A stretch of 64,000 nucleotides of DNA from Alphaproteobacteria bacterium UBA3773. GTDB lineage: Bacteria; Pseudomonadota; Alphaproteobacteria; RF32; CAG-239. The position numbers were made by a program, and so were the translations under genes. Of this stretch, positions 9,289-48,591 are shown one piece after another; position 1 is the first letter of the stretch; each line of letters starts with the position of its first letter. The stretch spans positions 17,851-81,850 of the forward strand of contig DFFP01000003.1 of NCBI GenBank assembly GCA_002372275.1, read 5' to 3'. The notes beneath the pieces were generated by a model. The model did no database searches and had not been told where the DNA came from. It saw only the letters and a program-made list of their open reading frames with translations.

Positions 9289-12200
9289 CTACCAACTTGC
9301 AGGGGGTATAATCGTCGCACCGGTTCTTCTTTCTCCATTTACAATCTCAGCCATACGAGGCGTCATCTTATAAACGTAGTAATCTTCTGTATCAGTCGGA
9401 CTGCTGTCTAACGTACAATTGCTATCGCATTCTATGCTAGACTTATTATAAGGAAGAGGACCATTACATTCTGAAACAGGCTTCTTAATACGAAACCAAT
9501 AAGTGGTGCCATAATCAAGCTTGTGTGTAGCAGAAGAATACTTTTGTCCTTCTCCTACACAGTCACCATCCGCAGTACCAAGATCAGCACATTTATTAAC
9601 ATTGCAGTCCCCACTTGGATTTACAAAATTACCTTCCAAAGTAATTTGAAGTTCACCATCACAATTTGCGTTATCGCATACCTGTGCCTCAACACCAACC
9701 ACATTTGTGAATAGGAAGAAGTCATTTTTAACCGGCGTGCAGATATCACCCTCTAGCGTATATCCTTCATCGCAATCTGTAATGTCAGCACCATCACAAA
9801 TACCATGTGCCGGACAATCGTTACATGTGCCGCATGTTCCGTCTGCCACAAAATAGCCTGTTCCTGATCGGCAGTTAGGCCTCCAGCAACCATGTTCAAC
9901 AGATCCTCGATCAGAAGGCAAACACATCGAATTTTCACCAAAATACTTATTAGCTGTATCACATTCGCATTCGATTTCCGTACCTGAACCTACACGAGTA
10001 TTTCTGTCCGCACATCCGGTTTTTTTATAACAAGATGCTGATTCATCAACCCATGAGATTGATGCACTAATTTCTGAAGTTTTATAGTGGCTTCTATGAG
10101 CATCATCTTTGCCTATTTCATTATCTCCTGTACATGGATAAATACATCTCATATTTTTTCCTTTTTCTCCGTTAGTCTGTGTAGCATTTACACAGGACAC
10201 CTTTCGACAATATCCACAACCTGGTATCACAGCCGAAACAGTGGAATTATGATGAGTATAGGCTGCAAGACTATTAGCATGACTAGCGTAAGATTGACCA
10301 CTTATATATGGGGAATCACAGACGTATGCTCCATTATCGAGCGTCAATTCTTCACATTGCAAACTTGTACATCTTCCATCTATGTAATTTTCATTTTTCG
10401 GACAACAATGACCATTAGTTGCGTCATAACCATCATCACATGTGTATTTATAACAGTTTGTTCCTTCAACCGGAGTACAGACATAACCATCTCCAACCGG
10501 ATTATCATGACAAGTTGATGTTGAGTGATAGCTGTTTAAACCTTTATCACTTATATCACCATCTTGAAACTCACATGAGTTCATGTCTGCTGTTGTAATA
10601 TAAAAAGCCATCATATACGAACACTGATCTGAAGAGACATATGAAGTTATATGATACTGATTGGTCAGAATAAATTCATTATATTTATCACCATCATCTG
10701 TAACATTTATATGACCAGCGGGAGAATTTGCACATGCAAAGTCTTTCACTCGATAATATACAGGTCTATTGTTATTATTTGTCTCGGCTTCAATCCTTAT
10801 CGTATCGCCAATATAGGCAAACGCATTGTCTGCCGAAAAATACTGAGTCGAAGCGGAATGTTTACGGCAGTAAGAATTTTTCCCATTCCCCCATATATAT
10901 GCTCCGTTTACAAGAGTAGCACTATCCTTATCCATAGTCTTCTCATGTCCAACGGTTATATCTGTAATTGTAAAATCAGTAATGGTGCTGTCAGTCATAA
11001 CAGAAATACATACCGGTTTTTCAACGCACTTATAATTTTCACTATCCCACATATAATAATGTGTTCCGTTATTATCTGTTGGGTGATAACCAGTATTACA
11101 ACTTATTTTATAGCATTGTCCACTTGTATCCGAGGTTACTACCTCTTCTAAAAGATACATATCTGTTTGATATTCTAAATATCTTGTTGTAGTGCTTAAA
11201 ACATAACTGTCGCCACGCTGCGTACACTGCGCGAGTTCACAATATCCATCCGAATTAGGCAAATATCCTTCTTTGCAATCCAATCTATAGCACGTCAGAT
11301 CATAGTAGCCGCCGCAAGCACCGGTAGACCAACAACGCAGCCGTGATTTTACAGCTGTGCATTTATATCCTGTTGCTGTGCAATGAGGGTCATCTGCTGA
11401 ATTATAGTAGCTGTTAATTCCATCATTCTTTTGATCATTTTCACAAGATCTGCAATCATACATGGTATAACACTGACCATCAGATCCCGTTGCAGTTCCA
11501 TTACTATCTCTGACCTCAAAATAAGCGGGGCAACTTTTCTCATTCTCTAATTTTATTGTCGTTAGATATTGACCGGTTGTCGGTTTTGTATAATAACTTT
11601 TTCCAAATCCTTGGCCTATTTCGTCACAAGTTTTAAGCTCCATAGAAGCTTCAGCTTCAACACTTTCACCTTCCAATCCGAGACTTGCGACATATCTGCC
11701 AGTTATATCCGTTTGTATCGCTTCTTCTTTTTGCTGATTGTTTTTATCATAAGCATGCAAAGCATCTACCGATACGCCAGAAACAAAACTATTTTCCCCT
11801 GAACGATCTGAGCATATTCCTTCTTCGCTACACACTTTGAATGAAGCACTCACCAAAATATCAATTCCGACAGGATTTACATCTTGTGGCCCTTTATAAG
11901 TTGCAGTTCCACTATCTTCCTGTATTTGTCCGGATACAACCCTTGTTTCCGTTCCACTGGCATCAATAGATTGAATAACGCTACCCTTTTCTGCTCTTTG
12001 TGTCGAACCGCTTCCTGTTTCCGTTGTATGGTAAATTTGATATATCAAATCAAATTGACAAGGTGTACCGACATGTGACTCATCACAGCGTCCCAAAGTA
12101 GCATTAACTGTTGCATTTTTGATTTTGAAATTAAATTTCTTTGCTAATTGATAACAAGTCTGCCCTGTTTTCTTCGTGTCTTTAATCTCGGAACATATAA

Positions 12201-13296
12201 CATCATTTTTTGAACAATAACTGTCATTTTGATCTGTATGATAACTTAAAAACTGGTCATCAGCTAAACCGCCGTCTAAATCTTCACATGCTTTTGCGAC
12301 GCAGCGTCCGCATGTGTTATCTTGAACATTTATTGTATCAACAAAATTAAAATAATCTGAATTACATTCATTTCTTGGAACATAAGTTTTCTCACAATTT
12401 TCATCATAAACTTCCGCACATGTCTCGTAAGCTCTACAAGTCCAATACTCGCCAATTTGCGCATCATATATTTTCTGGCATGCTTTTCCTAATGCACAAC
12501 AATTTGCTTCCTCACATGAAGAATATCCTTGTCTGCAGTAACCACATTGATCATTACCAGAAAATTGGTTAATTGGTTGAAAATCACTCTCATCACAATC
12601 TGCTAAATTGGCAAGCGTATCATACCCCTCGGGGCAAGATTCCGGTTCACAGCTGAAAGAAGTTCCAATAATTGATGTAGAATTTTCCTCTCTTATAAAA
12701 GACACAGGAGAAGACATAAAATTCGAATAGACCGAGGCATTTGCTGTTTCTTTGAAACCGGTATTGCATTGCCATTGTGTATAAAAGGGTATACTTTGAC
12801 CGCAAGAGGCAATAGTGATCTGATCGTTAGCTGTAGCATTTTCAGGTAAGACAAAAATAGCTTTTTCGTATTCTTCCTTATACTTTTTCATAACATTAAC
12901 ATAATCAACCTCACATTTACCATAAGTACCTTTTTCGCATTCATCGGAGAGTTTAGCATAATCACCTTTGTTATATTCCGTCCATTTACAAATCTTATCT
13001 TGATTGCAATCGAAGCAGTTTAAACCATGGAAAGAAACGGGGACACACATTTTGCCATTTTCTGGCTTATCAATATCGCTCAACGCACCATCTTCACACT
13101 TATATTGTCTGCACCATATATAGCCCTTGTCGAACGGACATGTTATGTATCCGTCCACACAAGTAATATCCTTCTTAAGTTTATAACCTAAGCTTTCACA
13201 TTCCGGTTTAGGTACGCAATTTCCACCGCACCCTTCATCTGCTGCCATAGCAGCCGGCGCAAACAAAATACAAGCAATTAAGAAAATCTTTTTCAT
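9289..13296 (-). CDS. Giant secreted cysteine-rich protein of 1335 aa with EGF-like C-x-x-GY motifs. Possible adhesin or effector; hypothetical.
   Basis: Signal peptide MKKIFLIACILFAPAAMAADEGCGGNC. Very high Cys, Gly, Tyr, Asp, Asn, Thr and Ser content with recurring C-x(2-4)-C-x(2)-GY-x(n)-C spacing (CYKISCNTGYHPTDNNG..., CYRLDCKEGYLPNSDGYC, CYKYTCDDGYDATNGHCC). The coding region is more AT-rich than the flanking ribosomal genes. Confidence 0.8.
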   Translation of the reverse strand: MKKIFLIACILFAPAAMAADEGCGGNCVPKPECESLGYKLKKDITCVDGYITCPFDKGYIWCRQYKCEDGALSDIDKPENGKMCVPVSFHGLNCFDCNQDKICKWTEYNKGDYAKLSDECEKGTYGKCEVDYVNVMKKYKEEYEKAIFVLPENATANDQITIASCGQSIPFYTQWQCNTGFKETANASVYSNFMSSPVSFIREENSTSIIGTSFSCEPESCPEGYDTLANLADCDESDFQPINQFSGNDQCGYCRQGYSSCEEANCCALGKACQKIYDAQIGEYWTCRAYETCAEVYDENCEKTYVPRNECNSDYFNFVDTINVQDNTCGRCVAKACEDLDGGLADDQFLSYHTDQNDSYCSKNDVICSEIKDTKKTGQTCYQLAKKFNFKIKNATVNATLGRCDESHVGTPCQFDLIYQIYHTTETGSGSTQRAEKGSVIQSIDASGTETRVVSGQIQEDSGTATYKGPQDVNPVGIDILVSASFKVCSEEGICSDRSGENSFVSGVSVDALHAYDKNNQQKEEAIQTDITGRYVASLGLEGESVEAEASMELKTCDEIGQGFGKSYYTKPTTGQYLTTIKLENEKSCPAYFEVRDSNGTATGSDGQCYTMYDCRSCENDQKNDGINSYYNSADDPHCTATGYKCTAVKSRLRCWSTGACGGYYDLTCYRLDCKEGYLPNSDGYCELAQCTQRGDSYVLSTTTRYLEYQTDMYLLEEVVTSDTSGQCYKISCNTGYHPTDNNGTHYYMWDSENYKCVEKPVCISVMTDSTITDFTITDITVGHEKTMDKDSATLVNGAYIWGNGKNSYCRKHSASTQYFSADNAFAYIGDTIRIEAETNNNNRPVYYRVKDFACANSPAGHINVTDDGDKYNEFILTNQYHITSYVSSDQCSYMMAFYITTADMNSCEFQDGDISDKGLNSYHSTSTCHDNPVGDGYVCTPVEGTNCYKYTCDDGYDATNGHCCPKNENYIDGRCTSLQCEELTLDNGAYVCDSPYISGQSYASHANSLAAYTHHNSTVSAVIPGCGYCRKVSCVNATQTNGEKGKNMRCIYPCTGDNEIGKDDAHRSHYKTSEISASISWVDESASCYKKTGCADRNTRVGSGTEIECECDTANKYFGENSMCLPSDRGSVEHGCWRPNCRSGTGYFVADGTCGTCNDCPAHGICDGADITDCDEGYTLEGDICTPVKNDFFLFTNVVGVEAQVCDNANCDGELQITLEGNFVNPSGDCNVNKCADLGTADGDCVGEGQKYSSATHKLDYGTTYWFRIKKPVSECNGPLPYNKSSIECDSNCTLDSSPTDTEDYYVYKMTPRMAEIVNGERRTGATIIPPASW

Positions 13297-31248: not shown

Positions 31249-31359
31249 AGCTTTGTCCTTTTGTTTATTATCAACAATGGTTGTAATTTAGCTTATTTAT
31301 TTTTTTAATACAATAAACGTTTTTAAAAAATAAACAAACACCTTTTGTGCTTTTTGTTC

Positions 31360-31446
31360 AAATCTCGATATAGAAATATCGGACCAACAAAAAACCTCCC
31401 GCAAGGGGAGGCTTTTTTGTTGGTGATTTAAGCGAGATTTTTCTTG
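31360..31446. repeat. About 85-bp unit: T-arm-like segment, long terminator-like hairpin, then a degenerate tRNA-Glu 3'-end copy
   Basis: ttcaaatctcgatatagaaatatcggaccaacaaaaaacctccc-gcaa-ggggaggcttttttgttggtgatttaagcgagattttt. Its paralogous unit at 31603-31697 overlaps the true tRNA 3' end. Confidence 0.6.
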
Positions 31447-31602
31447 TCATGATGGTTCGCTTGAAGCTCACATCATGCCTTCGGTCACTCGTTTGTTAAT
31501 TTCGCCGCGGTCGCTTATACGCTTCCTTGCTCAAATAAACAAACTTCGCCTCTTGTGGTAAAAAATGCCGTTTAAGGCATTTTTTATCCTCGAGCTCGTC
31601 CC

Positions 31603-31697
31603 TCGTTCAAATCTCGGCATAGAAATACCGGACCAACAAAAAAAAACACACCGCAAGGGTGTGTTTTTTTTGTTGGTGATTCCAACGAGATTTGAAC
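31603..31697. repeat. Second copy of the about 85-bp hairpin unit, overlapping the tRNA-Glu 3' end. Long near-perfect palindrome.
   Basis: gttcaaatctcggcatagaaataccggaccaacaaaaaaaaacacacc-gcaa-gggtgtgtttttttttgttggtgattccaacgagatttgaac. Both the outer 12-bp arms and the inner arms are complementary. Confidence 0.6.
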
Positions 31698-31748
31698 TCG
31701 TGTTGCAGCCTTGAGAGGGCCGCGTCCTAACCACTAGACGATGGAACC
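31674..31748 (-). tRNA. tRNA-Glu with anticodon CUC as read, CCA encoded
   Basis: The minus strand reads GGTTCCATCGTCTAGTGGTTAGGACGCGGCCCTCTCAAGGCTGCAACACGAGTTCAAATCTCGTTGGAATCACCA. A 7-bp acceptor stem, D-arm, anticodon stem CGGCC/GGCTG with loop CTCTCAA, and T-arm ACGAG/CTCGT with loop TTCAAAT fold correctly. It aligns with bacterial tRNA-Glu. Confidence 0.7.
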
Positions 31749-31799
31749 GAAAAGGGTTTTATTCTTTTACCCTATTTTATTTTAATTTGCAAGATTTTT

Positions 31800-32723
31800 T
31801 TATTCTCCGCGATTTGAATCTGATTTTCTCTTTTTAAGTTTGGCTAATTTTTCGCTGACCAAACCCGTCTCACGCCCTGTTCTTGCCAGTCTGTCATACA
31901 TTCGTTCAATTTCTTTTTCCAAATAAGCGCGTTCAATTTCGCTTGCTAAATTTTGCTTCATTCCCTCCGTTCCAAAGCAGCGAATATTTTCTACCTCATC
32001 AAGCAAGTCTTCAACATAGCGATGCGTTTCTTCTTTCTTTTTGATAAAATAAGGCATTTCATAAGCTATTTGTCTGGCGTTGGCATAAGCTTCCGTCCCG
32101 TTTTCACAGTTATTATATTTCAGTTTCAAAAGCCTGAGTGCTGTTTCCGCCTCTTCGCTGTTATCCACCACAATAAAGGGCATACGTGTTGCAAATCCTG
32201 TTGCCGAAAGCTCTTTAAGCGTTTCCAAAATATGATAAAAGAAATTATCGATGTTATAAATAATAAACGGCTTGTTTTTCAAAAAACCGTCCTGCATAGC
32301 CACACAGTCATACGCAAGCTCATCTAACGTTCCGACCCCGCCCGGTGCAAACACGACCAAGTCAGCTTCCAAAAGCTTTTTCTTACGATTTTCAAGTGAA
32401 TCTTCAATCACAACTTCGCTGATTAAATTCAACAGTTCATCTTTTTCATAAAGGTCATAATATTCTTTTGTTGTGACCCCGATAATCGGAGCTGCTCCTT
32501 TTTCACCTTTGTCATTATTTTTAAGGTATTCATCAATCACACCGCGTGCCACGGCGCCCATCACACCCGAATTTGAAAATCCGTAATCCAAACGGAATCC
32601 CATTTTTGCAATAATTTTACCGAGTTTATAACTTTCTTCCACATAAATCGGATCAAAACCGTCCTGATGTCCGCCGGAGACGCAAACTCTCAAATTTCTT
32701 TTCACAACGCAGTCTTCTGTCAT
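31800..32723 (-). CDS. LOG-family (TIGR00730) Rossmann-fold protein, a putative cytokinin-riboside-5'-monophosphate phosphoribohydrolase-like enzyme with a C-terminal coiled-coil extension
   Basis: The motif FAPGGVGTLDELAY matches the LOG PGGxGTxxE signature, and VCVSGG lies near the N-terminus. Start chosen at the internal Met (MTEDCVVKRNLRVCVSGG) to avoid overlapping ctrA. Confidence 0.6.
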   Translation of the reverse strand: MTEDCVVKRNLRVCVSGGHQDGFDPIYVEESYKLGKIIAKMGFRLDYGFSNSGVMGAVARGVIDEYLKNNDKGEKGAAPIIGVTTKEYYDLYEKDELLNLISEVVIEDSLENRKKKLLEADLVVFAPGGVGTLDELAYDCVAMQDGFLKNKPFIIYNIDNFFYHILETLKELSATGFATRMPFIVVDNSEEAETALRLLKLKYNNCENGTEAYANARQIAYEMPYFIKKKEETHRYVEDLLDEVENIRCFGTEGMKQNLASEIERAYLEKEIERMYDRLARTGRETGLVSEKLAKLKKRKSDSNRGE

Positions 32724-37727: not shown

Positions 37728-38363
37728 ATGACATCAAAATCAGCACATGATGAAGCAAATATAATAAGAAGCGGCTTATATGAAAACCAGATTGAGCCGA
37801 CAGACGCCTTAAGATTATCTGCTCGCATTGAAGGTGAAGAAACCGCCAAGCGTGATATTGTCTTTCATGCTTTGCAAAATAATTCTTCTCTTGAAATGCT
37901 TCACATGTCATTAGATATTGCCGCTACAATGAAATATCCGTCTCCTAAATTTCAAGTTTTATCTGAAATTTTAAAAAAATGCCCGAATAATTTTGAGCAA
38001 TCTGTGATTATTGATTACAAAGCCATAAAACAATCTGAGACCGTTGACGGGGCCTCTGCCGAAAAATCCGAAATCATTGAAACGATTTGCGGACGTGAAA
38101 ATAGGATGCCCATGTCCTTGTTTAATGAGATGGTTCATCTGTCTTCCACGCTTTACGATTCGGATTGTGTCCCCAATGCTTTTGCCGCACTTTCAAAACG
38201 TCCGGAATGTCAAATGAGTCACATTCAACATTTCACAGACATCGTCAATGGTCATGTTACAGATGAAAACAGAAGATCAAATTTATTAAAACAAATCACA
38301 AGCGCACCGATCTGCGTTCAAGCCCGTCAAAAGCATTCTGTTAAACGTTCAAATACGCTTTAA
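37728..38363 (+). CDS. Hypothetical protein
   Basis: 211-aa ORF with a plausible RBS (taggagaataaatATG). No recognisable motif. Confidence 0.4.
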   Translation: MTSKSAHDEANIIRSGLYENQIEPTDALRLSARIEGEETAKRDIVFHALQNNSSLEMLHMSLDIAATMKYPSPKFQVLSEILKKCPNNFEQSVIIDYKAIKQSETVDGASAEKSEIIETICGRENRMPMSLFNEMVHLSSTLYDSDCVPNAFAALSKRPECQMSHIQHFTDIVNGHVTDENRRSNLLKQITSAPICVQARQKHSVKRSNTL

Positions 38364-40681
38364 TCCGGTGCATCAATTTTAAGGGTCAAAGTCAAAATAT
38401 TTTTACCCTTTATATACCTGTAAGAAGCTTTATCAGACATTTGTTTAACCAAAAAGATGCCTAAGCCGCCTGTTGCTCTGTCTTCCAGCGGAGCCGAAAT
38501 GTCCGGATCTTTTCTTAAGAGCGGATTAAACTTTAAGCCGCTGTCTGTCAGTTTTAAAACGATTAATCCGCCTTTTTTGCGCAAACTGACATCCACATAT
38601 CCCGTACAACCGACATAAGCATAGCTGGCCACATTTGTAAATGACTCTTCTGCCACCAGATTAAGTCTCTGAATTGTTTTAAGCGGCAAAGAAAATGCCG
38701 TTGCTCCTTCATTTAACCACTTTGAAAAGAGACTATAATTTTCCGTGGTTGCCAAAAGCGTCACATGTCTTTCATCTGTTTTATTCTGCATTCCGTTATA
38801 TTTAAATGCGAGCATTGTCAAATCATCACTTTGGGCCGTATTTTGCACAAAATCCTCCACATTTTTCTTCACATCTTCAAGCAAGCGCCTTGATCCGCTT
38901 AATTTCAAATTATTTAAGCAATCGAGCAATCTTTCCTCCCCATAAAATTCTCTTTTTTCATTTAAGGCCTCTGTCAAACCGTCGGTATATAAAAAGAGCG
39001 TATCTCCTTTATTGAGCAAAGTTTCCGTCACATGATATTCAAAATCGTCCAGTGCACCCAAAGGCATATTAGAATCTGTTTTGAGGTATTCAAACTTACC
39101 ACCATTGCGACAAATAAGCGGCGGATTATGCCCGCAATTTATAAAAGCGATTTTTCCGGTTTCCAAATCCACAATACCGATAAAAGCCGTCACAAAAAAT
39201 CCGAATTGATTATTTTCCTGAATTTTATTATTGATTTTTGAAATCAAGCGACCATGACCTTCTTTATCATTGAACATATTTTTAATTGTTGTTTTAACGG
39301 TCATCATAAACAAAGCGGCCGGCACACCTTTGCCCGAAACATCAGCTACCAAAAACACAAATTGTTTAAGCGAAATAAAGAAAAAGTCATAAAAATCGCC
39401 TCCGATTTCTCTGGCCGGGTTCATCAAAGCAAAGATATTAAATTCCTTCACTTCCGGATAGAAAAATGACGGCAAATATGAGCTTTGAATTTTACTTGCC
39501 ACATCAAGTTCCGTTGCGATACGTTCTTTTTCTTTTGTGAAAGTATTGACGTGCTCAATATATTCTTTTAAGTTTTCACCCATCTGATTAAATGTTTTGG
39601 CAAGTTGTGCAAACTCTGCCGGTTTTTGCAAATGATTTTTAGCATCAATTTTTCCCTGTCCGAAGAGTTCTGCCGTTCGGGTCAATGACTTAATGGGTCT
39701 GTTCACATTTTTCTCCAAGATCAAATAAATTGCCAAAACCATCAAACAGATAGCCGGAAACAAAAAGAGAAACATCCAGAGCCTTATTCTTTTAATGGGA
39801 GCAAATAATTCTTCTTCGGGAATATTCATCACAAAGATCATCCCGTTTCCAAGTTCTTTCACATTTGTTAAAAACTGCTTGCCATTGTGTTTTAAAAATG
39901 AAATACCTTTCAAATCATCACGATACCACGAAACTTCTTTAAGAGATTGACCGAAAAGTTCATTTTGCTTCAAATTAGGATCCGTTGACCCGATCACAAA
40001 ATCGTTATTTTTGTCTGCCACCAGCGAAAAACTGTGCGGTGTCGGTTTCATACTCATGAGTGTTGCCACAATATCGCCGATTTTCCAGTCAATTGTTGAA
40101 AGCCCGACAAGTTTATCATTAAAGTATATACCGGCACCTACCGTTGTCATCAATGTTTCGGATCCCTGATTTTCATAGTATGGCGACGACCATTCAACTT
40201 TAATATTTTTTTCAAGGGAAGGTATAATTTCACGATACCATTTTTGCGTTAAATAATCATATTCTTCGCTTGCAAATTGATCATCAAGCAAAACCTTTCC
40301 CTCATCATTGTGATAAGCATAATAGCATGTTCTTTTTTGATTATCATAGACCGAGTATGCTTTAAACCACACACCGCCCCCCAAAAGCGCCGGAGATTTT
40401 TCAAAAAAATCTTGCACAACAGAGGCAATCATCGGTGCCGATCTGTCTGTTTTGTAGTGAAGTTCGCCGATCAGTGCCAAGTCGACAGCCTTATTTTCCA
40501 TCACATTAATGTCTTTTTCGATTTTGCGTGCAAAGGTCGAAATTTCAAAATCGCTTGCCGTAATTATTAATTTTTTCGCATTTTTATAATTAAGGTAACT
40601 GAAAAAAGAAACAATTCCGCATAAAAATATCAAAATAAAAACCAAGAGAACAACAATTTTCGATTTAACGGTTTTAAGCAT
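38360..40681 (-). CDS. Membrane sensor: Cache-like periplasmic domain, HAMP, SpoIIE/PP2C phosphatase, then a C-terminal RsbW-like GHKL (HATPase_c) serine-kinase/anti-sigma domain
   Basis: 773 aa, paralogous to 29365-31248 over the first roughly 600 residues (HAMP NVNRPIKSLTRTAELFGQGKIDAKNHLQKPAEFAQLAKTFNQM; SpoIIE PAREIGGDFYDFF, LVADVSGKGV, LFLYTDGLTEA). The extra C-terminal region (LVAEESFTNVASYAYVGCTGYVDVSL...TDSGLKFNPL...GGLGIFLVKQMSD) matches the HATPase_c_2 family of anti-sigma factors. Confidence 0.7.
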   Translation of the reverse strand: MLKTVKSKIVVLLVFILIFLCGIVSFFSYLNYKNAKKLIITASDFEISTFARKIEKDINVMENKAVDLALIGELHYKTDRSAPMIASVVQDFFEKSPALLGGGVWFKAYSVYDNQKRTCYYAYHNDEGKVLLDDQFASEEYDYLTQKWYREIIPSLEKNIKVEWSSPYYENQGSETLMTTVGAGIYFNDKLVGLSTIDWKIGDIVATLMSMKPTPHSFSLVADKNNDFVIGSTDPNLKQNELFGQSLKEVSWYRDDLKGISFLKHNGKQFLTNVKELGNGMIFVMNIPEEELFAPIKRIRLWMFLFLFPAICLMVLAIYLILEKNVNRPIKSLTRTAELFGQGKIDAKNHLQKPAEFAQLAKTFNQMGENLKEYIEHVNTFTKEKERIATELDVASKIQSSYLPSFFYPEVKEFNIFALMNPAREIGGDFYDFFFISLKQFVFLVADVSGKGVPAALFMMTVKTTIKNMFNDKEGHGRLISKINNKIQENNQFGFFVTAFIGIVDLETGKIAFINCGHNPPLICRNGGKFEYLKTDSNMPLGALDDFEYHVTETLLNKGDTLFLYTDGLTEALNEKREFYGEERLLDCLNNLKLSGSRRLLEDVKKNVEDFVQNTAQSDDLTMLAFKYNGMQNKTDERHVTLLATTENYSLFSKWLNEGATAFSLPLKTIQRLNLVAEESFTNVASYAYVGCTGYVDVSLRKKGGLIVLKLTDSGLKFNPLLRKDPDISAPLEDRATGGLGIFLVKQMSDKASYRYIKGKNILTLTLKIDAPD

Positions 40682-43932: not shown

Positions 43933-44493
43933 TTACGGCAACAAACAAGAAATATGGTATCCGCTAATACCTTCTAATTCATCTTCTGCCCTGATGAGAA
44001 TTTGGGCATTATCTTCAATAAAAATAATCGGCGTTTGATATTTTTCATGCATTGTTTTTAAGACATCCAGTTTTTCGACAGAGCTTTTCACATGAATAAC
44101 CTTGTCGGCGGGTATTTTAAAATTTTGAACCACAATATCCGTTTTAATTTTTTCCAAAGCCGATACCGTTTGGGTTAAAATCCAAATATTTTCATGCTCG
44201 ATTTTTGAAAAAATATATTGCATCGTTTTTAAGAGATGCACATTTTCATACATATTGTGTCCGGCAAGTGTATATACTTGAACATCTTTATCAAGACAAG
44301 GGAGCATTCGATCAAGCGTATATTGAAACTGCGAAAGCGTACCGTCAAAATCAAAAACGGTTAATTTTCCTTTTGTCCGTTCAATAAATTTTTCCACATT
44401 TTGCCGATATTCATCAAATAAGTCTTCAAGCATAACACGTCCCTTACTTTTTAATTTTTCGACAAGGGTATAAAACATCCTCTCATAAGTCAA
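43933..44493 (-). CDS. HAD-superfamily hydrolase-like protein
   Basis: The motif LTVFDFDGTLSQ is a DxDGT-type HAD motif I. 186 aa. Confidence 0.5.
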   Translation of the reverse strand: MTYERMFYTLVEKLKSKGRVMLEDLFDEYRQNVEKFIERTKGKLTVFDFDGTLSQFQYTLDRMLPCLDKDVQVYTLAGHNMYENVHLLKTMQYIFSKIEHENIWILTQTVSALEKIKTDIVVQNFKIPADKVIHVKSSVEKLDVLKTMHEKYQTPIIFIEDNAQILIRAEDELEGISGYHISCLLP

Positions 44494-44547
44494 TGATTTT
44501 TTTATCTTGCAAAGCTGTCCAAATTGTCGTAATTTTTAAATAAATTT

Positions 44548-45549
44548 ATGATAGGGGAATATTTTATAATGAAGACATCTGAAAAACTCGAAAAATGGGT
44601 TGCACAAGGGCTTATTTCAAAAGAACAGGCCGAAAAAATTTTAATTTCAGAACAATCCAATAATTCAAATTTTGTCTTAAAATGGATGTATTTAATTGCC
44701 GGACTTTTCATCGGTCTTGGCGTGATTTTAATCATCAGTGCCAACTGGGAAAATATCCCACCCTTTTTAAAATTAGCGGGCGATTTTACGTTATGGGGTA
44801 TTGTTTTATACCAAGCGTACCATAGTGTCATGTACAAAAAAAATAAATTAAAAGAATTCTTTTTAGTTTTATCGTTTTTATTTATCGGCGCCACAATCGG
44901 TTTACTCGGGCAGATTTTTAATTTAAGCGGCGGCTGGCAATCTTTTGCATGCTTTTGGGCACTTCTTGGTTTACCGTTTGTTTTATGCAGCAGATTATTA
45001 TCATTTAATATATGCTGGCTGTGCCTGTTTTTTTCCATTTTTGATTTCGGATGGCTCGAGAAATTTCTTGACTACATCGACACACATCTTGACGGCGTTT
45101 TCCTGACCGTTATTGTTCTTTCTCTTTTAAGCTATGCCGGCAAAAAATTAGATGAAACAGTTCATCAATTTACTTTACTGCCCAAAGCCTTTGAAAATCT
45201 TTCCATGGTGATGGCCTATGTGGCGATTTTTTCAGCCTCATTTGTCAGACACACATGGTTTTTCTTTTACTTTTCAGATTTCGGCTCACTTTTAATGTAT
45301 CTGTTTTCGTTTGCCTTTTTTGCTTTTCGCATGGCTTTGGCTGTTCAAACCCAAAACATGCTTTCATTTAAGCGAAACGCGGCAGCCGTTGAAATATACA
45401 TCTTTCTGATTTTTGCCAATCAGCTCAGCGACTTGCTCCTTTCCGGCTTCGGATTTATTTTAAGCGGACTTTCCGTTTTAGGCTTAATTTATATCTTAAA
45501 AAAGACATCAAAATATATCAAAAAAATGGGAGTTTTCCATGCAGCATAA
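44548..45549 (+). CDS. Multi-pass membrane protein, DUF2157-like
   Basis: The N-terminus WVAQGLISKEQAEKIL resembles the DUF2157 N-terminal motif and is followed by at least 8 TM helices. The start may be at MKTSEKL (44569). Confidence 0.45.
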   Translation: MIGEYFIMKTSEKLEKWVAQGLISKEQAEKILISEQSNNSNFVLKWMYLIAGLFIGLGVILIISANWENIPPFLKLAGDFTLWGIVLYQAYHSVMYKKNKLKEFFLVLSFLFIGATIGLLGQIFNLSGGWQSFACFWALLGLPFVLCSRLLSFNICWLCLFFSIFDFGWLEKFLDYIDTHLDGVFLTVIVLSLLSYAGKKLDETVHQFTLLPKAFENLSMVMAYVAIFSASFVRHTWFFFYFSDFGSLLMYLFSFAFFAFRMALAVQTQNMLSFKRNAAAVEIYIFLIFANQLSDLLLSGFGFILSGLSVLGLIYILKKTSKYIKKMGVFHAA

Positions 45550-45967
45550 AATTTTAGCATACTTATTTTTTGTTCCCTTTATCGCACTTCTTTTGTGGAC
45601 GGGGTGGCTTTATTACGCAAGACACAACGGCACTGATATTCGCGTTGTCATCACAGGCTACGACCCGCGAGATTTACTTTCCGGCCACTTTATACAATAT
45701 ACCATTGATTGGCAAAAAACAAACTGTACGCAATTTAAGGATAATATTTGCCCTGAAGAAGAATTTTGCAAAGAGGCCAGATGGGGCAAACAATGCCGTT
45801 TTTATATTCCGCAAAATTATGCCAAAGAGCTTGATAAACTGTTTCGAAATCGCTCTCAAAATGATATGATTTTTGAAGTTGTTTATTCTTATCATAAAGG
45901 CATTGAACCGCTTGCCAAACAGCTTTTAATCAACGGCAAAGATTGGCACGAAAGCATCGAAAAATAA
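45539..45967 (+). CDS. GDYXXLXY-domain protein, membrane-anchored
   Basis: N-terminal TM followed by VVITGYDPRDLLSGHFIQYTIDW, which matches the DPRDLxRGxY core of the GDYXXLXY family. The family is commonly paired with DUF2157 or DUF4401 membrane proteins. Confidence 0.45.
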   Translation: MQHKILAYLFFVPFIALLLWTGWLYYARHNGTDIRVVITGYDPRDLLSGHFIQYTIDWQKTNCTQFKDNICPEEEFCKEARWGKQCRFYIPQNYAKELDKLFRNRSQNDMIFEVVYSYHKGIEPLAKQLLINGKDWHESIEK

Positions 45968-45989
45968 ATAGTTATTTGAAATAGTTTTT

Positions 45990-46538
45990 TTATTTCACAA
46001 GCCTTAAATACTTTGGCAAAATCACGCCGCCTTTGACAACAATCAAATAATAGCGCACAAATGCAAACCGGCGCTTTAATTTGTCGTCACACACACTCCA
46101 ATCAATCGGGGTATAATCAATATCATCAATACCGTTTTGAAGTTTTATCCAGAGTTCATCACAAACTTGTTTTTCAATTGCTTTCGGATCATCCAAAACA
46201 GAAGGGCTGACGTAAACGGCTTCAATCAAACCATCCTCATTCATTTTTGAAATATCAATTTCAAACAAATCAGATTGATCCACAAAATCCTTGAGGCAAT
46301 GAGTATTTTTTTCGCTCCATTTTATCGGTTCACTAAATCCCCTGACGGCCCGGCTCCGACCGATATAACAACTTTCCATCCATTGGACTATTTCACGGTG
46401 TGTTGTTTTCCCGTTTGTGCGCTCAAAATAATACGACAAATCAGCATTCGGATTCTTTGCAAACGACAACAATCCTTTTTGTAAAACATCATTTCCTTTC
46501 AAGACATAATGATAAAGCTTCATTGTTTTTGCCTCCAT
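45990..46538 (-). CDS. Hypothetical protein
   Basis: 182-aa ORF that abuts the next gene with a 1-nt overlap. No recognisable motif. Confidence 0.35.
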   Translation of the reverse strand: MEAKTMKLYHYVLKGNDVLQKGLLSFAKNPNADLSYYFERTNGKTTHREIVQWMESCYIGRSRAVRGFSEPIKWSEKNTHCLKDFVDQSDLFEIDISKMNEDGLIEAVYVSPSVLDDPKAIEKQVCDELWIKLQNGIDDIDYTPIDWSVCDDKLKRRFAFVRYYLIVVKGGVILPKYLRLVK

Positions 46539-46855
46539 TAATTGTTGAGCAAAGGAATGATATTGATAACGGGTTCTTCATAAGGGTGTACCTTTTTAAC
46601 GGCCTCAATCGTTTGTTTTAGGTTTTCCGTATCCACACGCACCTCAACCTTCATTTCTTCTTCTGCGCTTATCTCAAATTTCTTTCCGATATACGGCTTT
46701 GCATTTTCAAGCGGACGAAATGTCCCGATCACCTTGTGATAAGACAAACACGAATCATAATTTCCGATCTGACCGGCACCAACTTGTTGCAAGCTTGATT
46801 GCAATTTTTTCAAATGTGTTTCGGGTATAAATATTTCCAATTTGCAAAATGCCAT
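46538..46855 (-). CDS. Small conserved protein, possibly of the GlnB/CutA-like (PII fold) superfamily
   Basis: 105 aa. The C-terminal HPYEEPVINIIPL resembles the CutA HPYExPE motif. Tentative. Confidence 0.35.
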   Translation of the reverse strand: MAFCKLEIFIPETHLKKLQSSLQQVGAGQIGNYDSCLSYHKVIGTFRPLENAKPYIGKKFEISAEEEMKVEVRVDTENLKQTIEAVKKVHPYEEPVINIIPLLNN

Positions 46856-47012
46856 ATTGACCTCATTTTGATTTTTTCACACGTCTTAATATAAAACAAT
46901 TTATAAAATCTGGCAACAAAAAACTTGACAATTAATAGACAAAATTTTAGAATAAACACAATTTAAGTTATTAACATATTATTTCATCTAAAACCCCATA
47001 GAAAAGGCTATG

Positions 47013-47162
47013 GCAAAACACTTTGTTATGAAAAAACAAATCATGAAAAAACTGCAAGACATCTTATCTGCAATGATCGAAAAATTAGATCAATTTGTTA
47101 ATGAGAATGACATTATCGAGCGAATAAAAATGTACAAATTCGGCAAAACCGATGATGTGTAA
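47013..47162 (+). CDS. Small ORF of 49 aa, hypothetical. Not in the ORF track.
   Basis: MAKHFVMKKQIMKKLQDILSAMIEKLDQFVNENDIIERIKMYKFGKTDDV*. An AT-stem hairpin and T-run follow at 47177-47220. Confidence 0.25.
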   Translation, partial: AKHFVMKKQIMKKLQDILSAMIEKLDQFVNENDIIERIKMYKFGKTDDV

Positions 47163-47217
47163 ATTGATGTCCGCATTCAAAGAATCCTTTTTTTTAAAAA
47201 AGGGTTCTTTTTTTATT

Positions 47218-47718
47218 TTATTTTTTTCTGTTTCTATAAATTTGTATCATTGTCCAAATGTTAAGAATCATATACGTTATCACAGACGGATACCCTCTGA
47301 TATAAAGATAATATGTCGCCCAAAACGAAAGATCCACGATTAAGGCATATCTCAATTGCTGCTCATTTTTTGTTAAATAAATGCATAAAGTATAACCAGC
47401 CGATGACAACACAGGCAATATCCCGATCAGCCCTCGATTATTAAATAAAAACCCGAGAGAAATACTTGTAGCTCCAATCAAAAGCGTTGCAATAAGCGAT
47501 AATTTCTTTTTATAGGCCAAAACATTTCTGATTAAAGAAACAGAATTTGTCGTAATGCCCGAATAAGAAAAGAGAGCGGCATTTGTTAAAATCGCAAAAA
47601 TTGTATTTCCAACCTGCCAATACATAAAATCCGTTTTACTTTTTTTCACAACGGAAACAGCCGTACACAGCGAGGCCAAAAAAGAAAATATATTTCCAAC
47701 AATTAAATATGTGTGCAT
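47218..47718 (-). CDS. Small multi-pass membrane protein, YgjV/PnuC-like (tentative)
   Basis: 166 aa with about 5 TM helices. Only weakly recognisable. Confidence 0.35.
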   Translation of the reverse strand: MHTYLIVGNIFSFLASLCTAVSVVKKSKTDFMYWQVGNTIFAILTNAALFSYSGITTNSVSLIRNVLAYKKKLSLIATLLIGATSISLGFLFNNRGLIGILPVLSSAGYTLCIYLTKNEQQLRYALIVDLSFWATYYLYIRGYPSVITYMILNIWTMIQIYRNRKK

Positions 47719-47890
47719 GGTTAATCCTTAAAAGATTGATTCTTAAAAGAACTTATAAATCAATTTTTTAAAATATCATACTTTTTTCTTAATTAGCTTG
47801 TGCTTAAAATAAGTAAAATCACTGAAAAAACAAACAAGAGCTTCCTTTAAATGCGCCGTTTTTTTGATATAATTTTAAGGAGAAAATAAT

Positions 47891-48505
47891 ATGAAAACAA
47901 TAGCCTACATCAGGGTCAGTTCATCAAAACAAACACTTGAGCACCAACGTTTTGAAATTGAAAATTTTACAAGCCGTGAAGGTATAAAAATAGATGAATG
48001 GGTCGAAGAAAAAATATCTTCCCGAAAATCACTTGACAAACGACAACTCGGAAAATTATTAAATGACTTAAAAGAAAACGACAGACTGATCACATGTGAA
48101 ATATCGCGTTTAGGACGTTCTCTTTTAGAGGTCATGAAAATTTTAGAAACATGTTTAAACAAGAATTGTCAAGTATGGACCTTGAAAGAAAATTACCGTT
48201 TAGGCAACGATATTCAATCAAAAGTTTTAGCCTTTGCATTCGGTTTGGCCGCCGAAATCGAGCGCAAACTCATTTCCGAACGCACAAAATCATCTCTTGC
48301 AAATATTAAGGCATCAGGCAAAAAGCTTGGAAGACCCTTATCTTCCCAATCTCAAAAATTAAAACTATCCAAAAACACAAAAAAAGTACAACATTTAATT
48401 GCCCAAGGTTTACCAAAATCTAAAATTGCAAAAATATTGGGGGTTCATCGTTCAACCGTCCGACATTTTATAGATCGGCTTAAACTCATATCCTTAATTT
48501 TGTAA
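47891..48505 (+). CDS. Serine recombinase of the resolvase/invertase family
   Basis: N-terminal catalytic domain AYIRVSSSKQTLEHQ with the SRLGRSLLEV motif. C-terminal HTH SKIAKILGVHRSTVRHF. 204 aa. Confidence 0.8.
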   Translation: MKTIAYIRVSSSKQTLEHQRFEIENFTSREGIKIDEWVEEKISSRKSLDKRQLGKLLNDLKENDRLITCEISRLGRSLLEVMKILETCLNKNCQVWTLKENYRLGNDIQSKVLAFAFGLAAEIERKLISERTKSSLANIKASGKKLGRPLSSQSQKLKLSKNTKKVQHLIAQGLPKSKIAKILGVHRSTVRHFIDRLKLISLIL

Positions 48506-48591
48506 ATTATAAAAAATTCTGAAATTTTACTGGAATTTTTACCATATTTTTTTTACAATAACTTTACCGTTTAATAACATAGGACTAAAAA

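What the first reader, a model, noticed from the sequence alone, without database searches (positions are those of the whole stretch)
31360..31748. tRNA-Glu(CUC) with a duplicated hairpin unit carrying a degenerate copy of its 3' end
The tRNA folds cleanly as Glu, but the anticodon reads CUC rather than the usual bacterial UUC. Its 3' end is embedded in an about 85-bp unit (31603-31697) that is a long palindrome around a terminator hairpin. A second, diverged copy of the unit (31360-31446) lies about 230 bp away and ends in tggtgatttaagcgagattttt, a degenerate tRNA 3' end. Partial tRNA 3'-end direct repeats are the classic footprint of integrase-mediated insertion or excision at tRNA genes (established knowledge). 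The 156-bp spacer between the copies contains a third small terminator-like hairpin (aaaaaatgcc-gtttaa-ggcatttttt), so a small RNA or an excision scar are both possible.
Basis: partly seen in the sequence, partly recalled or inferred. Interest (0 to 1): 0.5.

Follow-up and report, generated by a model that had tools for sequence, protein, structure and literature searches.

The report
Conserved structured RNA module behind tRNA-Glu
The "spacer plus degenerate tRNA end" behind this tRNA-Glu(CUC) gene is a roughly 200-base folded RNA-like module that sits between two terminators, is conserved across related uncultured gut Alphaproteobacteria, matches no Rfam family, and is framed by copies of the tRNA's own 3' end, rather than being the scar of an inserted island.

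Summary
tRNA-Glu(CUC) lies at 31674-31748(-). Two roughly 90-bp palindromic units are each built around a terminator hairpin. The second unit starts with a diverged tRNA 3' end.

The island-scar reading is not the best explanation. The 156-bp "spacer" plus the pseudo 3' end form one module, which I call X (31616->31421 on the tRNA strand). X is conserved behind tRNA-Glu(CUC) in at least five other species-level metagenome contigs. In three of them its 3' end is the canonical tRNA tail.

X folds into a closing helix, three hairpins and an invariant 12-nt linker. Of 68 predicted pairs, 22 show compensatory changes, against 8.6±2.0 in shuffles. It has no Rfam, phage or plasmid match.

X cores also occur next to tRNA-Pro and next to a tRNA-Lys-like fragment. 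In each case the sequence after the terminator is the reverse complement of that tRNA's T arm.

Relatives that lack X look like deletions between the repeated tails. No integrase lies nearby, and the flanking 30 kb holds core genes.

[quoted passage not shown] A small tRNA-homing, recombinogenic element remains possible.

The parts
31674..31748 (-). tRNA-Glu(CUC), with CCA encoded
   Evidence: ARAGORN; Rfam RF00005 at 61.1 bits. The T arm and 3' end are identical, and the whole gene scores the same 61.1 bits, in related contigs.
31632..31677 (-). Terminator T1. It is an extended hairpin: ACCAAC + A-run + ACACACC-loop-GGTGTGT + U-run + GUUGGU. It overlaps the tRNA's CCA end.
   Evidence: Inverted repeats I3 and I4. 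Folds at -24.9 kcal/mol, z -5.4. The simple terminator scan did not call it, probably because the stem extends through the T run.
31615..31630 (-). Small hairpin hp2 (CGGUA-UUUCUA-UGCCG)
   Evidence: Read from the sequence. It is kept in unit A through two changes (CGAUA/UAUCG). Present in L002 and L003 but not conserved in more distant relatives.
31605..31616 (-). Tc, the 5' strand of closing helix P1. CGAGAUUUGAAC is the exact reverse complement of the tRNA's T loop plus the 3' strand of its T stem.
   Evidence: I10, 12/12. Invariant in 6 species. 0 of 2000 shuffles match it.
31547..31598 (-). P2.
   Evidence: RNAalifold. Covarying pairs at alignment columns 55/97, 63/88, 69/82 and 70/81. 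Folds at -17.1 kcal/mol, z -4.7.
31491..31544 (-). P3. A long hairpin, GUUUGUUUAUU...AAUUAACAAAC, with a GC-rich interrupted tip.
   Evidence: RNAalifold. 8 of its 16 pairs show changes on both sides (helices 5 and 6).
31479..31490 (-). Linker (G/A)AGUGACCGAAG, predicted single-stranded. Eleven of its 12 nt are invariant in all 8 aligned copies.
   Evidence: Alignments A1 and A2. Unpaired in the consensus and single-sequence folds.
31446..31478 (-). P4. A hairpin with a variable 7-bp stem and a conserved UGAGC...GCGAAC core.
   Evidence: Helix 7: 5 of 7 pairs show compensatory changes and 100% of cells are paired.
31421..31445 (-). tRNA-derived 3' tail of X: AAGAAAAAUCUCG-CUUAAAUC-ACCA. Positions 31433-31440 form the 3' strand of P1.
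   Evidence: The tail is the canonical UUGGAAUCACCA in L017, L021 and L024 and diverged in the window, L016 and L025. The same variant tail ends the first tRNA copy in L003.
31383..31424 (-). Terminator T2 (ACCAAC + A-run + CCUCCC-loop-GGGAGG + U-run + GUUGGU)
   Evidence: I6. Terminator scan hit at 31395-31411. Folds at -25.6 kcal/mol, z -5.8. Same hairpin type as the single terminator in L002.
31356..31381 (-). Second copy of hp2 plus Tc (CGAUAUUUCUAUAUCGAGAUUUGAAC). Probably the start of a lost second module.
   Evidence: D2, 92% identical to 31605-31643. L025 keeps the same arrangement plus 18 nt of a second P2. Homology to the native SpoIIE upstream region of L010 starts at about 31338.

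Best explanation
Behind tRNA-Glu(CUC) lies a conserved, structured non-coding module of about 196 nt, which I call X (31616->31421 on the tRNA strand). It is bracketed by two intrinsic terminators, T1 and T2.

The 5' end of X (Tc, CGAGAUUUGAAC) is the reverse complement of the tRNA's T loop and stem. The 3' end of X is an old copy of the tRNA's 3' portion (AAAUCUCG + acceptor strand + ACCA). Together they form a closing helix, P1. P1 encloses three hairpins (P2, P3, P4) and an almost invariant 12-nt single-stranded linker, (G/A)AGUGACCGAAG.

The 'spacer' is the body of X.

Inferred mechanism: X has no recognisable promoter of its own. It would be made from the tRNA promoter by read-through of T1, as reported for the sRNAs that sit between the dual terminators of E. 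coli rrn operons. It would end at T2. Its tRNA-like ...ACCA tail would be trimmed by the tRNA 3'-end machinery. It would act through the exposed conserved linker.

Shown: conservation, covarying helices, position between two terminators, the same orientation as the tRNA at Glu, Pro and Lys-like loci, and gain or loss at the repeats.

Inferred: transcription, strand, processing and any target.

Because the tails are direct repeats, recombination between them deletes X or makes hybrid tRNAs. This makes the locus a rearrangement hotspot.
For: Conservation: X is alignable at 70-88% across the window, L016, L017, L021, L024 and L025, plus the tRNA-Pro loci L026/L027. Adjacent intergenic DNA is not alignable, and LOG proteins are only about 70% identical.

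Structure: the consensus fold has 68 pairs. 93% of cells are paired against 85% in shuffles. 22 pairs change on both sides against 8.6±2.0 in shuffles (0/500) and 3-8 in slid controls. The single-sequence fold agrees, at -55.9 kcal/mol, z -4.4.

Strand: the sense alignment folds better than the antisense (-51.9 vs -43.6 kcal/mol).

Terminators: a terminator-like hairpin is retained after X's tail in all six tRNA-Glu loci although its sequence changes.

tRNA-Pro loci: X lies on the tRNA strand downstream of a consensus-like promoter (read by eye) and upstream of the intact tRNA, with no strong terminator between. Transcription of the tRNA from that promoter would have to pass through X.

Rule across tRNAs: the post-terminator segment mirrors the local T arm for Glu (12/12), the Lys-like fragment and Pro. 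Each gave 0 of 2000 shuffles.

No Rfam family matches at E up to 10 in the window region, or up to 1 in seven related loci.

Precedent: sRNAs transcribed by read-through between dual terminators of a stable-RNA operon (PMC8144298).

Real arrangement: identical in three independent assemblies.
Against: - There are no expression data.
- No promoter for X was found, and T1 looks like a competent terminator (-24.9 kcal/mol plus 9 U's).
- Strand evidence is weak: 9 G·U cells against 6 C·A cells, and the antisense strand also folds well (z -3.6).
- Covariation rests on only 6-8 sequences, and the structure was derived from the same alignment.
- P1 is invariant, so it is untested by covariation.
- X has been lost or has decayed in close relatives (L002, L003, L020, L022), so it is dispensable.
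- The symmetric inverted tails, the tandem remnants and the association with three different tRNAs fit a mobile or recombining DNA element at least as naturally as an RNA gene.
Confidence: 0.5

Rival explanations
1. X is a small non-autonomous mobile or recombining DNA module. It resembles a MITE, or a cis-mobilisable (CIME-like) remnant of a tRNA-integrating element. Its ends are inverted copies of a tRNA 3' end. It inserts next to tRNA genes, duplicates part of the target, and is moved or amplified in trans by a recombinase encoded elsewhere. The hairpins would then be DNA or terminator features rather than an RNA fold.
For: - X is framed by inverted tails (GTTGGT...CGAGATTTGAAC vs CAAATCTCG...ACCAAC) and by direct repeats of tail plus terminator.
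- There are remnants of a second tandem module in the window and in L025.
- X cores sit at tRNA-Glu, tRNA-Pro, a tRNA-Lys-like fragment and one non-tRNA locus flanked by two ATCACCAA + terminator units.
- The tRNA-Pro copy is as close to the window's X (84%) as other tRNA-Glu copies are.
- X is present or absent between syntenic relatives: L024/L020, L021/L022, window/L002.
- The locus is a synteny breakpoint.
Against: - No integrase or transposase lies next to any copy examined. The only recombinase in the window is a small serine recombinase 16 kb away.
- There is one copy in 64 kb and few in about 250 kb of related loci.
- Nothing was found in phage, plasmid or viral collections.
- Compensatory changes in three internal helices and an almost invariant linker are not expected for passive att arms.
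- X at the tRNA-Glu locus looks old, being shared by lineages whose LOG proteins are only about 70% identical to the window's, and losses occur by different routes. L022 keeps both terminators.
Confidence: 0.25
2. This is the first reader's reading: an attL/attR-type scar. A tyrosine integrase inserted an element into the 3' end of tRNA-Glu, most of the element was later deleted, and a 156-bp remnant was left between the tRNA and its displaced 3' end.
For: - There is a direct repeat of the tRNA 3' segment starting in the T loop. By general knowledge this is a known sublocation class for tRNA integration.
- The displaced copy has decayed in the window, L016 and L025.
- In L003 the tRNA at this site carries the variant tail and is followed by 3.3 kb of extra DNA bounded by a second tRNA-Glu.
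Against: - No integrase is present here or in the L003 insert.
- The 'remnant' is conserved in sequence and structure across species.
- The repeat covers the terminator and an inverted tail, not just an identity block.
- The L003 repeats are 295 bp and include the end of the LOG gene. They join a SpoIIE' fragment to LOG', which looks like a duplication or rearrangement junction rather than an att site.
- The variant tail was not found in viral or JGI metagenome scans.
Confidence: 0.08
3. X is a purely cis-acting feature of the tRNA locus. It would be a dual-terminator 'insulator' and/or a 3'-trailer structure that pairs with the tRNA's 3' half in read-through transcripts, with no stand-alone product. 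The palindromes would have grown by template switching at the terminator.
For: - Long perfect pairing is possible between the tRNA's T arm and CCA end and the downstream Tc and GUUGGU. Unit B folds at -42.9 kcal/mol, z -8.
- The inverted tail is found even where X is absent or truncated (L014, L018, L002).
- In the window T2 shields the co-directional SpoIIE-family gene.
Against: - It does not explain the conserved, covarying P2-P4 body or the almost invariant linker.
- It does not explain X upstream of tRNA-Pro or X without any tRNA in L012.
Confidence: 0.12

Closest known systems
RrA/RrB/RrF sRNAs between the dual terminators of E. coli rrn operons (Stenum et al. 2021, PMC8144298)
   Same: A short conserved structured RNA gene lies between two tandem intrinsic terminators at the end of a stable-RNA transcription unit. 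It has no promoter of its own. [quoted passage not shown]
   Different: There is no sequence or structural homology (no Rfam hit). X sits behind a tRNA rather than an rRNA operon. X is about 200 nt with three hairpins. It is framed by direct and inverted copies of the tRNA 3' end. Expression was not tested here.
attL/attR repeats of tRNA-integrating elements, and cis-mobilisable remnants (CIMEs) that keep att sites but no integrase (general knowledge)
   Same: There is a partial direct repeat of a tRNA 3' segment starting in the T loop. There is presence/absence polymorphism bounded by the repeats. Hybrid tRNA 3' ends occur in a relative (L003).
   Different: There is no integrase and no cargo. 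The repeat extends through the terminator and into an inverted tail. The interior is a conserved 150-nt body with covarying helices. Equivalent modules carry 5' or internal tRNA fragments at the tRNA-Pro locus.
tRNA 3' external transcribed spacer RNAs such as 3'ETS-leuZ (general knowledge, not tested)
   Same: A functional RNA that derives from the trailer of a tRNA precursor and is released by tRNA processing.
   Different: Those are short unstructured trailers upstream of the terminator. X lies beyond a terminator and is large and highly structured.
MITEs and palindromic repeat elements such as Rickettsia palindromic elements or IS200/IS605-derived PATEs (general knowledge)
   Same: Small, non-coding, strongly self-complementary modules with inverted ends, found at several loci.
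   Different: Low copy number in the DNA available. The ends are copies of the neighbouring tRNA and change with the tRNA. No target-site duplication of the usual kind and no cognate transposase were seen.

Membership tests
tRNA-Glu | Cloverleaf with a Glu anticodon (CUC or UUC); a 4-nt variable loop and a U13·G22 pair, which are typical of Glu tRNAs | tested here: met
   ARAGORN calls Glu(CUC). Rfam tRNA scores 61.1 bits. The variable loop CAAC and the D stem GUCU/GGAC were read from the sequence.
Integrase-generated att duplication at a tRNA gene | Direct repeat of the 3' part of the tRNA, bounding the inserted DNA | tested here: met
   AAATCTCG...ATCACCAAC repeated at 31693-31672 and 31440-31419.
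Integrase-generated att duplication at a tRNA gene | An integrase (tyrosine or large serine recombinase) encoded inside or next to the bounded segment | tested here: not met
   The bounded segment is about 250 bp and non-coding. The neighbours are a LOG-family protein and a SpoIIE-type phosphatase. No integrase was found among the flanking ORFs or the ORFs of at least 150 aa that I scanned. None was found in the L003 insert.
Integrase-generated att duplication at a tRNA gene | The bounded DNA is foreign cargo, absent from relatives that show an intact attB | tested here: inconclusive
   X is absent in L002, L020 and L022 with homologous flanks. However, it is conserved at the same site in five other lineages, and L022 looks like decayed X.
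Intrinsic (Rho-independent) terminator | GC-rich hairpin followed by a U run | tested here: met
   T2 was called by the scan at 31395-31411. T1 and T2 fold at -24.9 and -25.6 kcal/mol and are followed by 9 and 6 U's. T1 was not called by the simple scan.
sRNA between dual terminators of a stable-RNA operon (RrA/B/F type) | Conserved sequence and structure located between two tandem terminators downstream of a stable-RNA gene | tested here: met
sRNA between dual terminators of a stable-RNA operon (RrA/B/F type) | [quoted passage not shown] | not testable with these tools
   No transcriptome data are available. Only the tRNA-Pro arrangement implies transcription through X.
Any Rfam 15 family, including alpha-proteobacterial two-piece tmRNA | Covariance-model match | tested here: not met
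   Only tRNA passes. There was nothing relevant at E up to 10 in 31250-31800 or at E up to 1 in seven X-bearing loci. ARAGORN finds no tmRNA.
MITE or other repeated mobile element | Terminal inverted repeats | tested here: met
   Tc vs tail (8-12 nt) and GTTGGT vs ACCAAC. These are copies of the adjacent tRNA's 3' end.
MITE or other repeated mobile element | Many dispersed copies per genome, with short target-site duplications | tested here: inconclusive
   There is one copy in the 64-kb window, and a model search of 250 kb of loci finds few. The whole genome is not available. No short target-site duplication was seen.

The most novel reading that the evidence does not exclude
X is a new kind of small tRNA-homing element or RNA. 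Its 5' segment works as an exchangeable guide that is complementary to the T arm of whichever tRNA gene it sits beside (Glu, Pro or Lys-like). Its tRNA-derived tail and the flanking terminator palindromes serve as the recombination or processing ends. This would be a non-autonomous, possibly RNA-guided module that targets tRNA loci, seeds tandem arrays and drives rearrangements there.
Probability: 0.12. Interest if true: 0.85.

Novelty: new variant of a known kind. Interest (0 to 1): 0.55.

Why it matters
If X is expressed, it is an undescribed family of structured RNA in an uncultured, poorly studied clade of gut Alphaproteobacteria. Its production would be tied to tRNA transcription. Its ends are recruited from the tRNA itself, so it could be a worked example of how tRNA gene fragments are co-opted into new RNA genes.

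There is also a practical point for genome annotation. A partial tRNA 3'-end repeat next to a tRNA is usually read as an island scar. Here that inference would be wrong.

The repeats also explain local instability at the locus: deletion of X, a hybrid tRNA with a mispaired acceptor stem in a relative, and a synteny breakpoint.

If the mobile or guide-like reading holds, it would be a new way for small elements to home to tRNA genes.

Tried and rejected
Searches that led nowhere:
- A genome-contig scan for the left-arm pattern gave only a chance hit inside a coding region of an Acidobacteriota MAG. The source species is apparently not in that collection.
- The variant tail AAATCTCGCTTAAATCACCA(A) has no match in viral contigs or JGI metagenomes. 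The canonical tail has none in viral contigs.
- The X linker pattern in viral contigs gave two hits, both inside coding sequence, so both are chance.
- blastn of the region against phages and plasmids found nothing.
- Rfam in permissive mode returned only terminator-like noise: Phe_leader, TD-2, RNAI and similar, all far below gathering scores.
- LOG homologues at 65-76% identity (L004, L026-L042) mostly lack the tRNA at this site, so they added only the tRNA-Pro case.
- The 742-aa ORF of the L003 insert has no Pfam, PADLOC or PHROG match.
- The literature search found no description of such a module. I could not check X against the catalogue of human-microbiome candidate RNAs (PMC8040213).

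Ideas considered and dropped:
- A decayed second tRNA gene in the spacer: no tRNA hit even at E = 10.
- A two-piece or permuted tmRNA: wrong order of parts, and no ARAGORN or Rfam hit.
- A hammerhead-like core in P4: the sequence is one nucleotide short of the consensus; read by eye.
- A conserved small ORF: the reading frames are not conserved between species.
- A 30-kb island downstream of the tRNA: that stretch holds core genes.

Full report
**1. The observation**

ARAGORN finds a single tRNA in the window, tRNA-Glu with anticodon CUC, at 31674-31748 on the minus strand. Rfam's tRNA model scores it at 61 bits. CCA is encoded, the variable loop has four bases and the D stem has the U13·G22 pair usual for Glu tRNAs (read).

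The repeat finder confirms the two units:
- 31356-31394 and 31605-31643 are 92% identical.
- 31383-31440 and 31636-31693 are 72% identical.
- The two terminator stems differ by compensatory changes around the same loop.

Patterns taken from the units occur only at these two places in 64 kb, with none expected by chance. Each unit is a long palindrome. As RNA, unit B folds at -42.9 kcal/mol (z -8.0) and unit A at -33.7 kcal/mol (z -6.3).

The 551-bp intergenic region is identical in three independent assemblies from different samples (L007, L008, L009). The arrangement is therefore real.

**2. Context**

The neighbours are ordinary chromosomal genes:
- On one side: a LOG-family protein, a response regulator, superoxide dismutase and AspRS.
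- On the other side: a Cache/HAMP/SpoIIE phosphatase, an LRR protein, and a protein kinase (with homologues of the VWA and PP2C genes of L004 beside it).

Protein homologues identify the organism as an uncultured low-GC "Alphaproteobacteria bacterium" known only from metagenomes.

The 30 kb beyond the repeats carries RecF, DnaB and a ribosomal-protein operon, so there is no island. No tyrosine integrase was found among the flanking ORFs or the ORFs of at least 150 aa that I scanned. The only recombinase is a small serine recombinase at 47891-48505.

**3. The decisive comparison**

I scanned metagenome contigs for the tRNA's 3' end and looked up contigs that encode homologues of the flanking proteins. 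This gave about 20 related loci.

In L016, L017, L021, L024 and L025 the sequence downstream of tRNA-Glu(CUC) aligns with the window across the whole "spacer" and into the second unit. L023 aligns only in part. On the tRNA strand the order is:
- the tRNA, ending in ACCA;
- terminator T1, a hairpin extended by ACCAAY/RTTGGT;
- a short variable stretch;
- CGAGATTTGAAC, which I call Tc, the exact reverse complement of the T loop plus the 3' strand of the T stem;
- hairpin P3;
- the linker (G/A)AGTGACCGAAG, 11 of whose 12 nt are invariant;
- hairpin P4;
- CAAGA(C/A)AAATCTCG + 7-8 nt + ACCA;
- terminator T2.

In L017, L021 and L024 the 7-8 nt are TTGGAATC, which is the canonical acceptor strand of the tRNA. 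In the window they are CTTAAATC, in L016 TTTCAATC and in L025 CC-CAATC.

The "degenerate tRNA 3' end" is therefore the 3' end of a conserved module, which I call X. In the window X runs from 31616 to 31421.

**4. Structure**

RNAalifold on six sequences gives a closing helix P1 (Tc with AAATCTCG), three hairpins and an unpaired linker. Counted on that alignment:
- 93% of cells are paired, against 85% in shuffles.
- 22 of 68 pairs carry changes on both sides, against 8.6±2.0 in shuffles (0 of 500) and 3-8 when partners are slid.
- The covariation lies in P2, P3, P4 and the terminators. P1 never varies, so it is untested.

The single-sequence fold of the window copy agrees, at -55.9 kcal/mol with z -4.4.

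The tRNA strand folds better than its complement (-51.9 vs -43.6 kcal/mol for the alignment). However, the G·U against C·A count is only 9 against 6, so the strand assignment is weak.

Rfam has no family for it, even at permissive thresholds, in the window or in seven related loci. ARAGORN sees no tmRNA.

**5. Other loci with the X core**

I built a covariance model of the P2-P3-linker core and searched 250 kb of fetched DNA.

- *tRNA-Pro (L026-L028).* X lies on the tRNA strand between a tRNA-Pro(UGG) 5' half, which ends at the anticodon loop, and a repeat of the 70-nt leader plus the intact tRNA-Pro. A consensus-like promoter (read by eye) sits upstream of all of this. Behind tRNA-Pro there is again a terminator, a mirrored 3' end and the first bases of another X.
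- *tRNA-Lys-like fragment (L015).* A truncated X follows a tRNA-Lys-like 3' fragment, a terminator and GGGGCTTGAACCCCGGAC, which is the complement of that fragment's own T arm.
- *No tRNA (L012/L013).* A diverged X (about 50 bits) has no tRNA beside it. It is flanked by two "ATCACCAA + terminator" units, which also enclose a NADAR gene.

The mirror relation between the local tRNA 3' end and the post-terminator sequence holds for Glu, the Lys-like fragment and Pro. Each gave 0 of 2000 shuffles.

X cores are 69-88% identical between species. The tRNA-Pro copies fall inside the range of the tRNA-Glu copies.

**6. Gain, loss and rearrangement**

- *L020* equals L024 without X. It has the tRNA followed by L024's second terminator, and the flanks are 94% identical.
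- *L002*, the closest relative (LOG 95% identical), has one unit whose terminator is of the window's unit-A type.
- *L022* keeps both terminators with only 24 nt between them, which looks like decayed X.
- *L003* has a first tRNA-Glu copy that ends in the window's variant tail CTTAAATC, leaving three mispairs in the acceptor and T stems. This is what a crossover between the tRNA and X's tail would produce. L003 also has 295-bp repeats (96.6% identical) covering the end of LOG and the tRNA. They flank 3.3 kb that holds an unannotatable 742-aa ORF and a chimeric SpoIIE'-LOG' ORF.
- In *L002 and L003* the tRNA unit abuts the homologue of window gene 1697-4186. The window's 1.7-31.3 kb segment therefore appears inverted relative to them.

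The window and L025 keep a second hp2-Tc after T2, and L025 also keeps 18 nt of a second P2. This suggests former tandem modules.

**7. Interpretation**

*What is shown.* The spacer and second unit are one conserved module with covarying helices. It is bounded by terminators and by direct and inverted copies of the tRNA 3' end. It is always co-oriented with a tRNA, and it is prone to repeat-mediated deletion.

*What is inferred.* X is transcribed from the tRNA promoter through T1. A precedent is the RrA/B/F sRNAs between the dual terminators of E. coli rrn operons (PMC8144298). The transcript would end at T2, be trimmed to its ...ACCA tail, and act through the exposed linker. I give this about 0.5.

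*Rivals.*
- A small non-autonomous mobile or recombining module that homes to tRNA genes (about 0.25). The inverted tails, the tandem remnants and the association with several tRNAs favour it. The lack of any recombinase, the low copy number and the internal covariation speak against it.
- A purely cis-acting trailer or insulator (about 0.12).

**8. Comparison and novelty**

Functionally the closest analogue is an sRNA between the dual terminators of a stable-RNA operon. Architecturally the locus also recalls att repeats or cis-mobilisable remnants, and MITEs. The defining features of those families (an integrase; cargo; many copies with target-site duplications) were either tested and not met or remain inconclusive.

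The CUC anticodon is conserved in all relatives examined. From general knowledge it is an unremarkable isoacceptor. Whether a UUC gene also exists cannot be checked from 64 kb.

I rate this a new variant of a known kind and moderately interesting. There is a small chance of something more unusual if the T-arm-complementary segment proves to be a targeting device.

Noticed in passing
window 47891-48505 (+); window 44000-56000: A small serine recombinase (Resolvase plus HTH domains, 204 aa) sits in a stretch of lower GC (0.33-0.35, against about 0.42 at 1-26 kb). This may be acquired DNA or an invertase system.
   Followed up: no
window 1689-31349 compared with L002, L003 and L004: In L002 and L003 the tRNA-Glu unit lies convergent with the homologue of window gene 1697-4186 (829 aa, Trypsin_2 domain). 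The window's 30-kb segment, which holds RecF, DnaB and a ribosomal-protein operon, therefore appears inverted, with one breakpoint at the tRNA/X locus.
   Followed up: partly
L003 5769-9426: 295-bp direct repeats (96.6% identical) covering the end of LOG plus tRNA-Glu flank a 3.3-kb insert. The insert has a 742-aa ORF with no Pfam, PADLOC or PHROG match and a chimeric ORF that joins the first ~125 aa of the SpoIIE-type phosphatase to the last ~50 aa of LOG. The first tRNA copy has a mispaired acceptor stem.
   Followed up: partly
L012 3039-3890 (also L013): Two 'ATCACCAA + terminator' units bracket a diverged X-like element and a NADAR-family gene, with no tRNA nearby. This looks like a cassette.
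   Followed up: partly
L026 4960-5440 (-): The tRNA-Pro(UGG) locus holds a tandem duplication (period ~243 nt) of the 70-nt leader plus a tRNA 5' half, with X in between. The duplicated leader begins a few bases downstream of the by-eye promoter, about where transcription would be expected to start.
   Followed up: partly
window 38360-40681 (-): A second Cache/HAMP/SpoIIE phosphatase paralogue that also carries a C-terminal HATPase_c_2 domain, 7 kb from the first.
   Followed up: no
L024 8075-8558: Several tandem copies of a repeat of about 120 nt lie just downstream of X's second terminator (blastn self-hits against L020).
   Followed up: no
window 9289-13296 (-), 53913-55481 (-), 55657-58596 (-): Large ORFs of 1335, 522 and 979 aa with no Pfam match at E up to 0.001.
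   Followed up: no
L016 531-617 (+) and 619-700: X's second terminator is shared with a convergent tRNA-Leu(CAG) gene, so X is sandwiched between two tRNA genes there.
   Followed up: no
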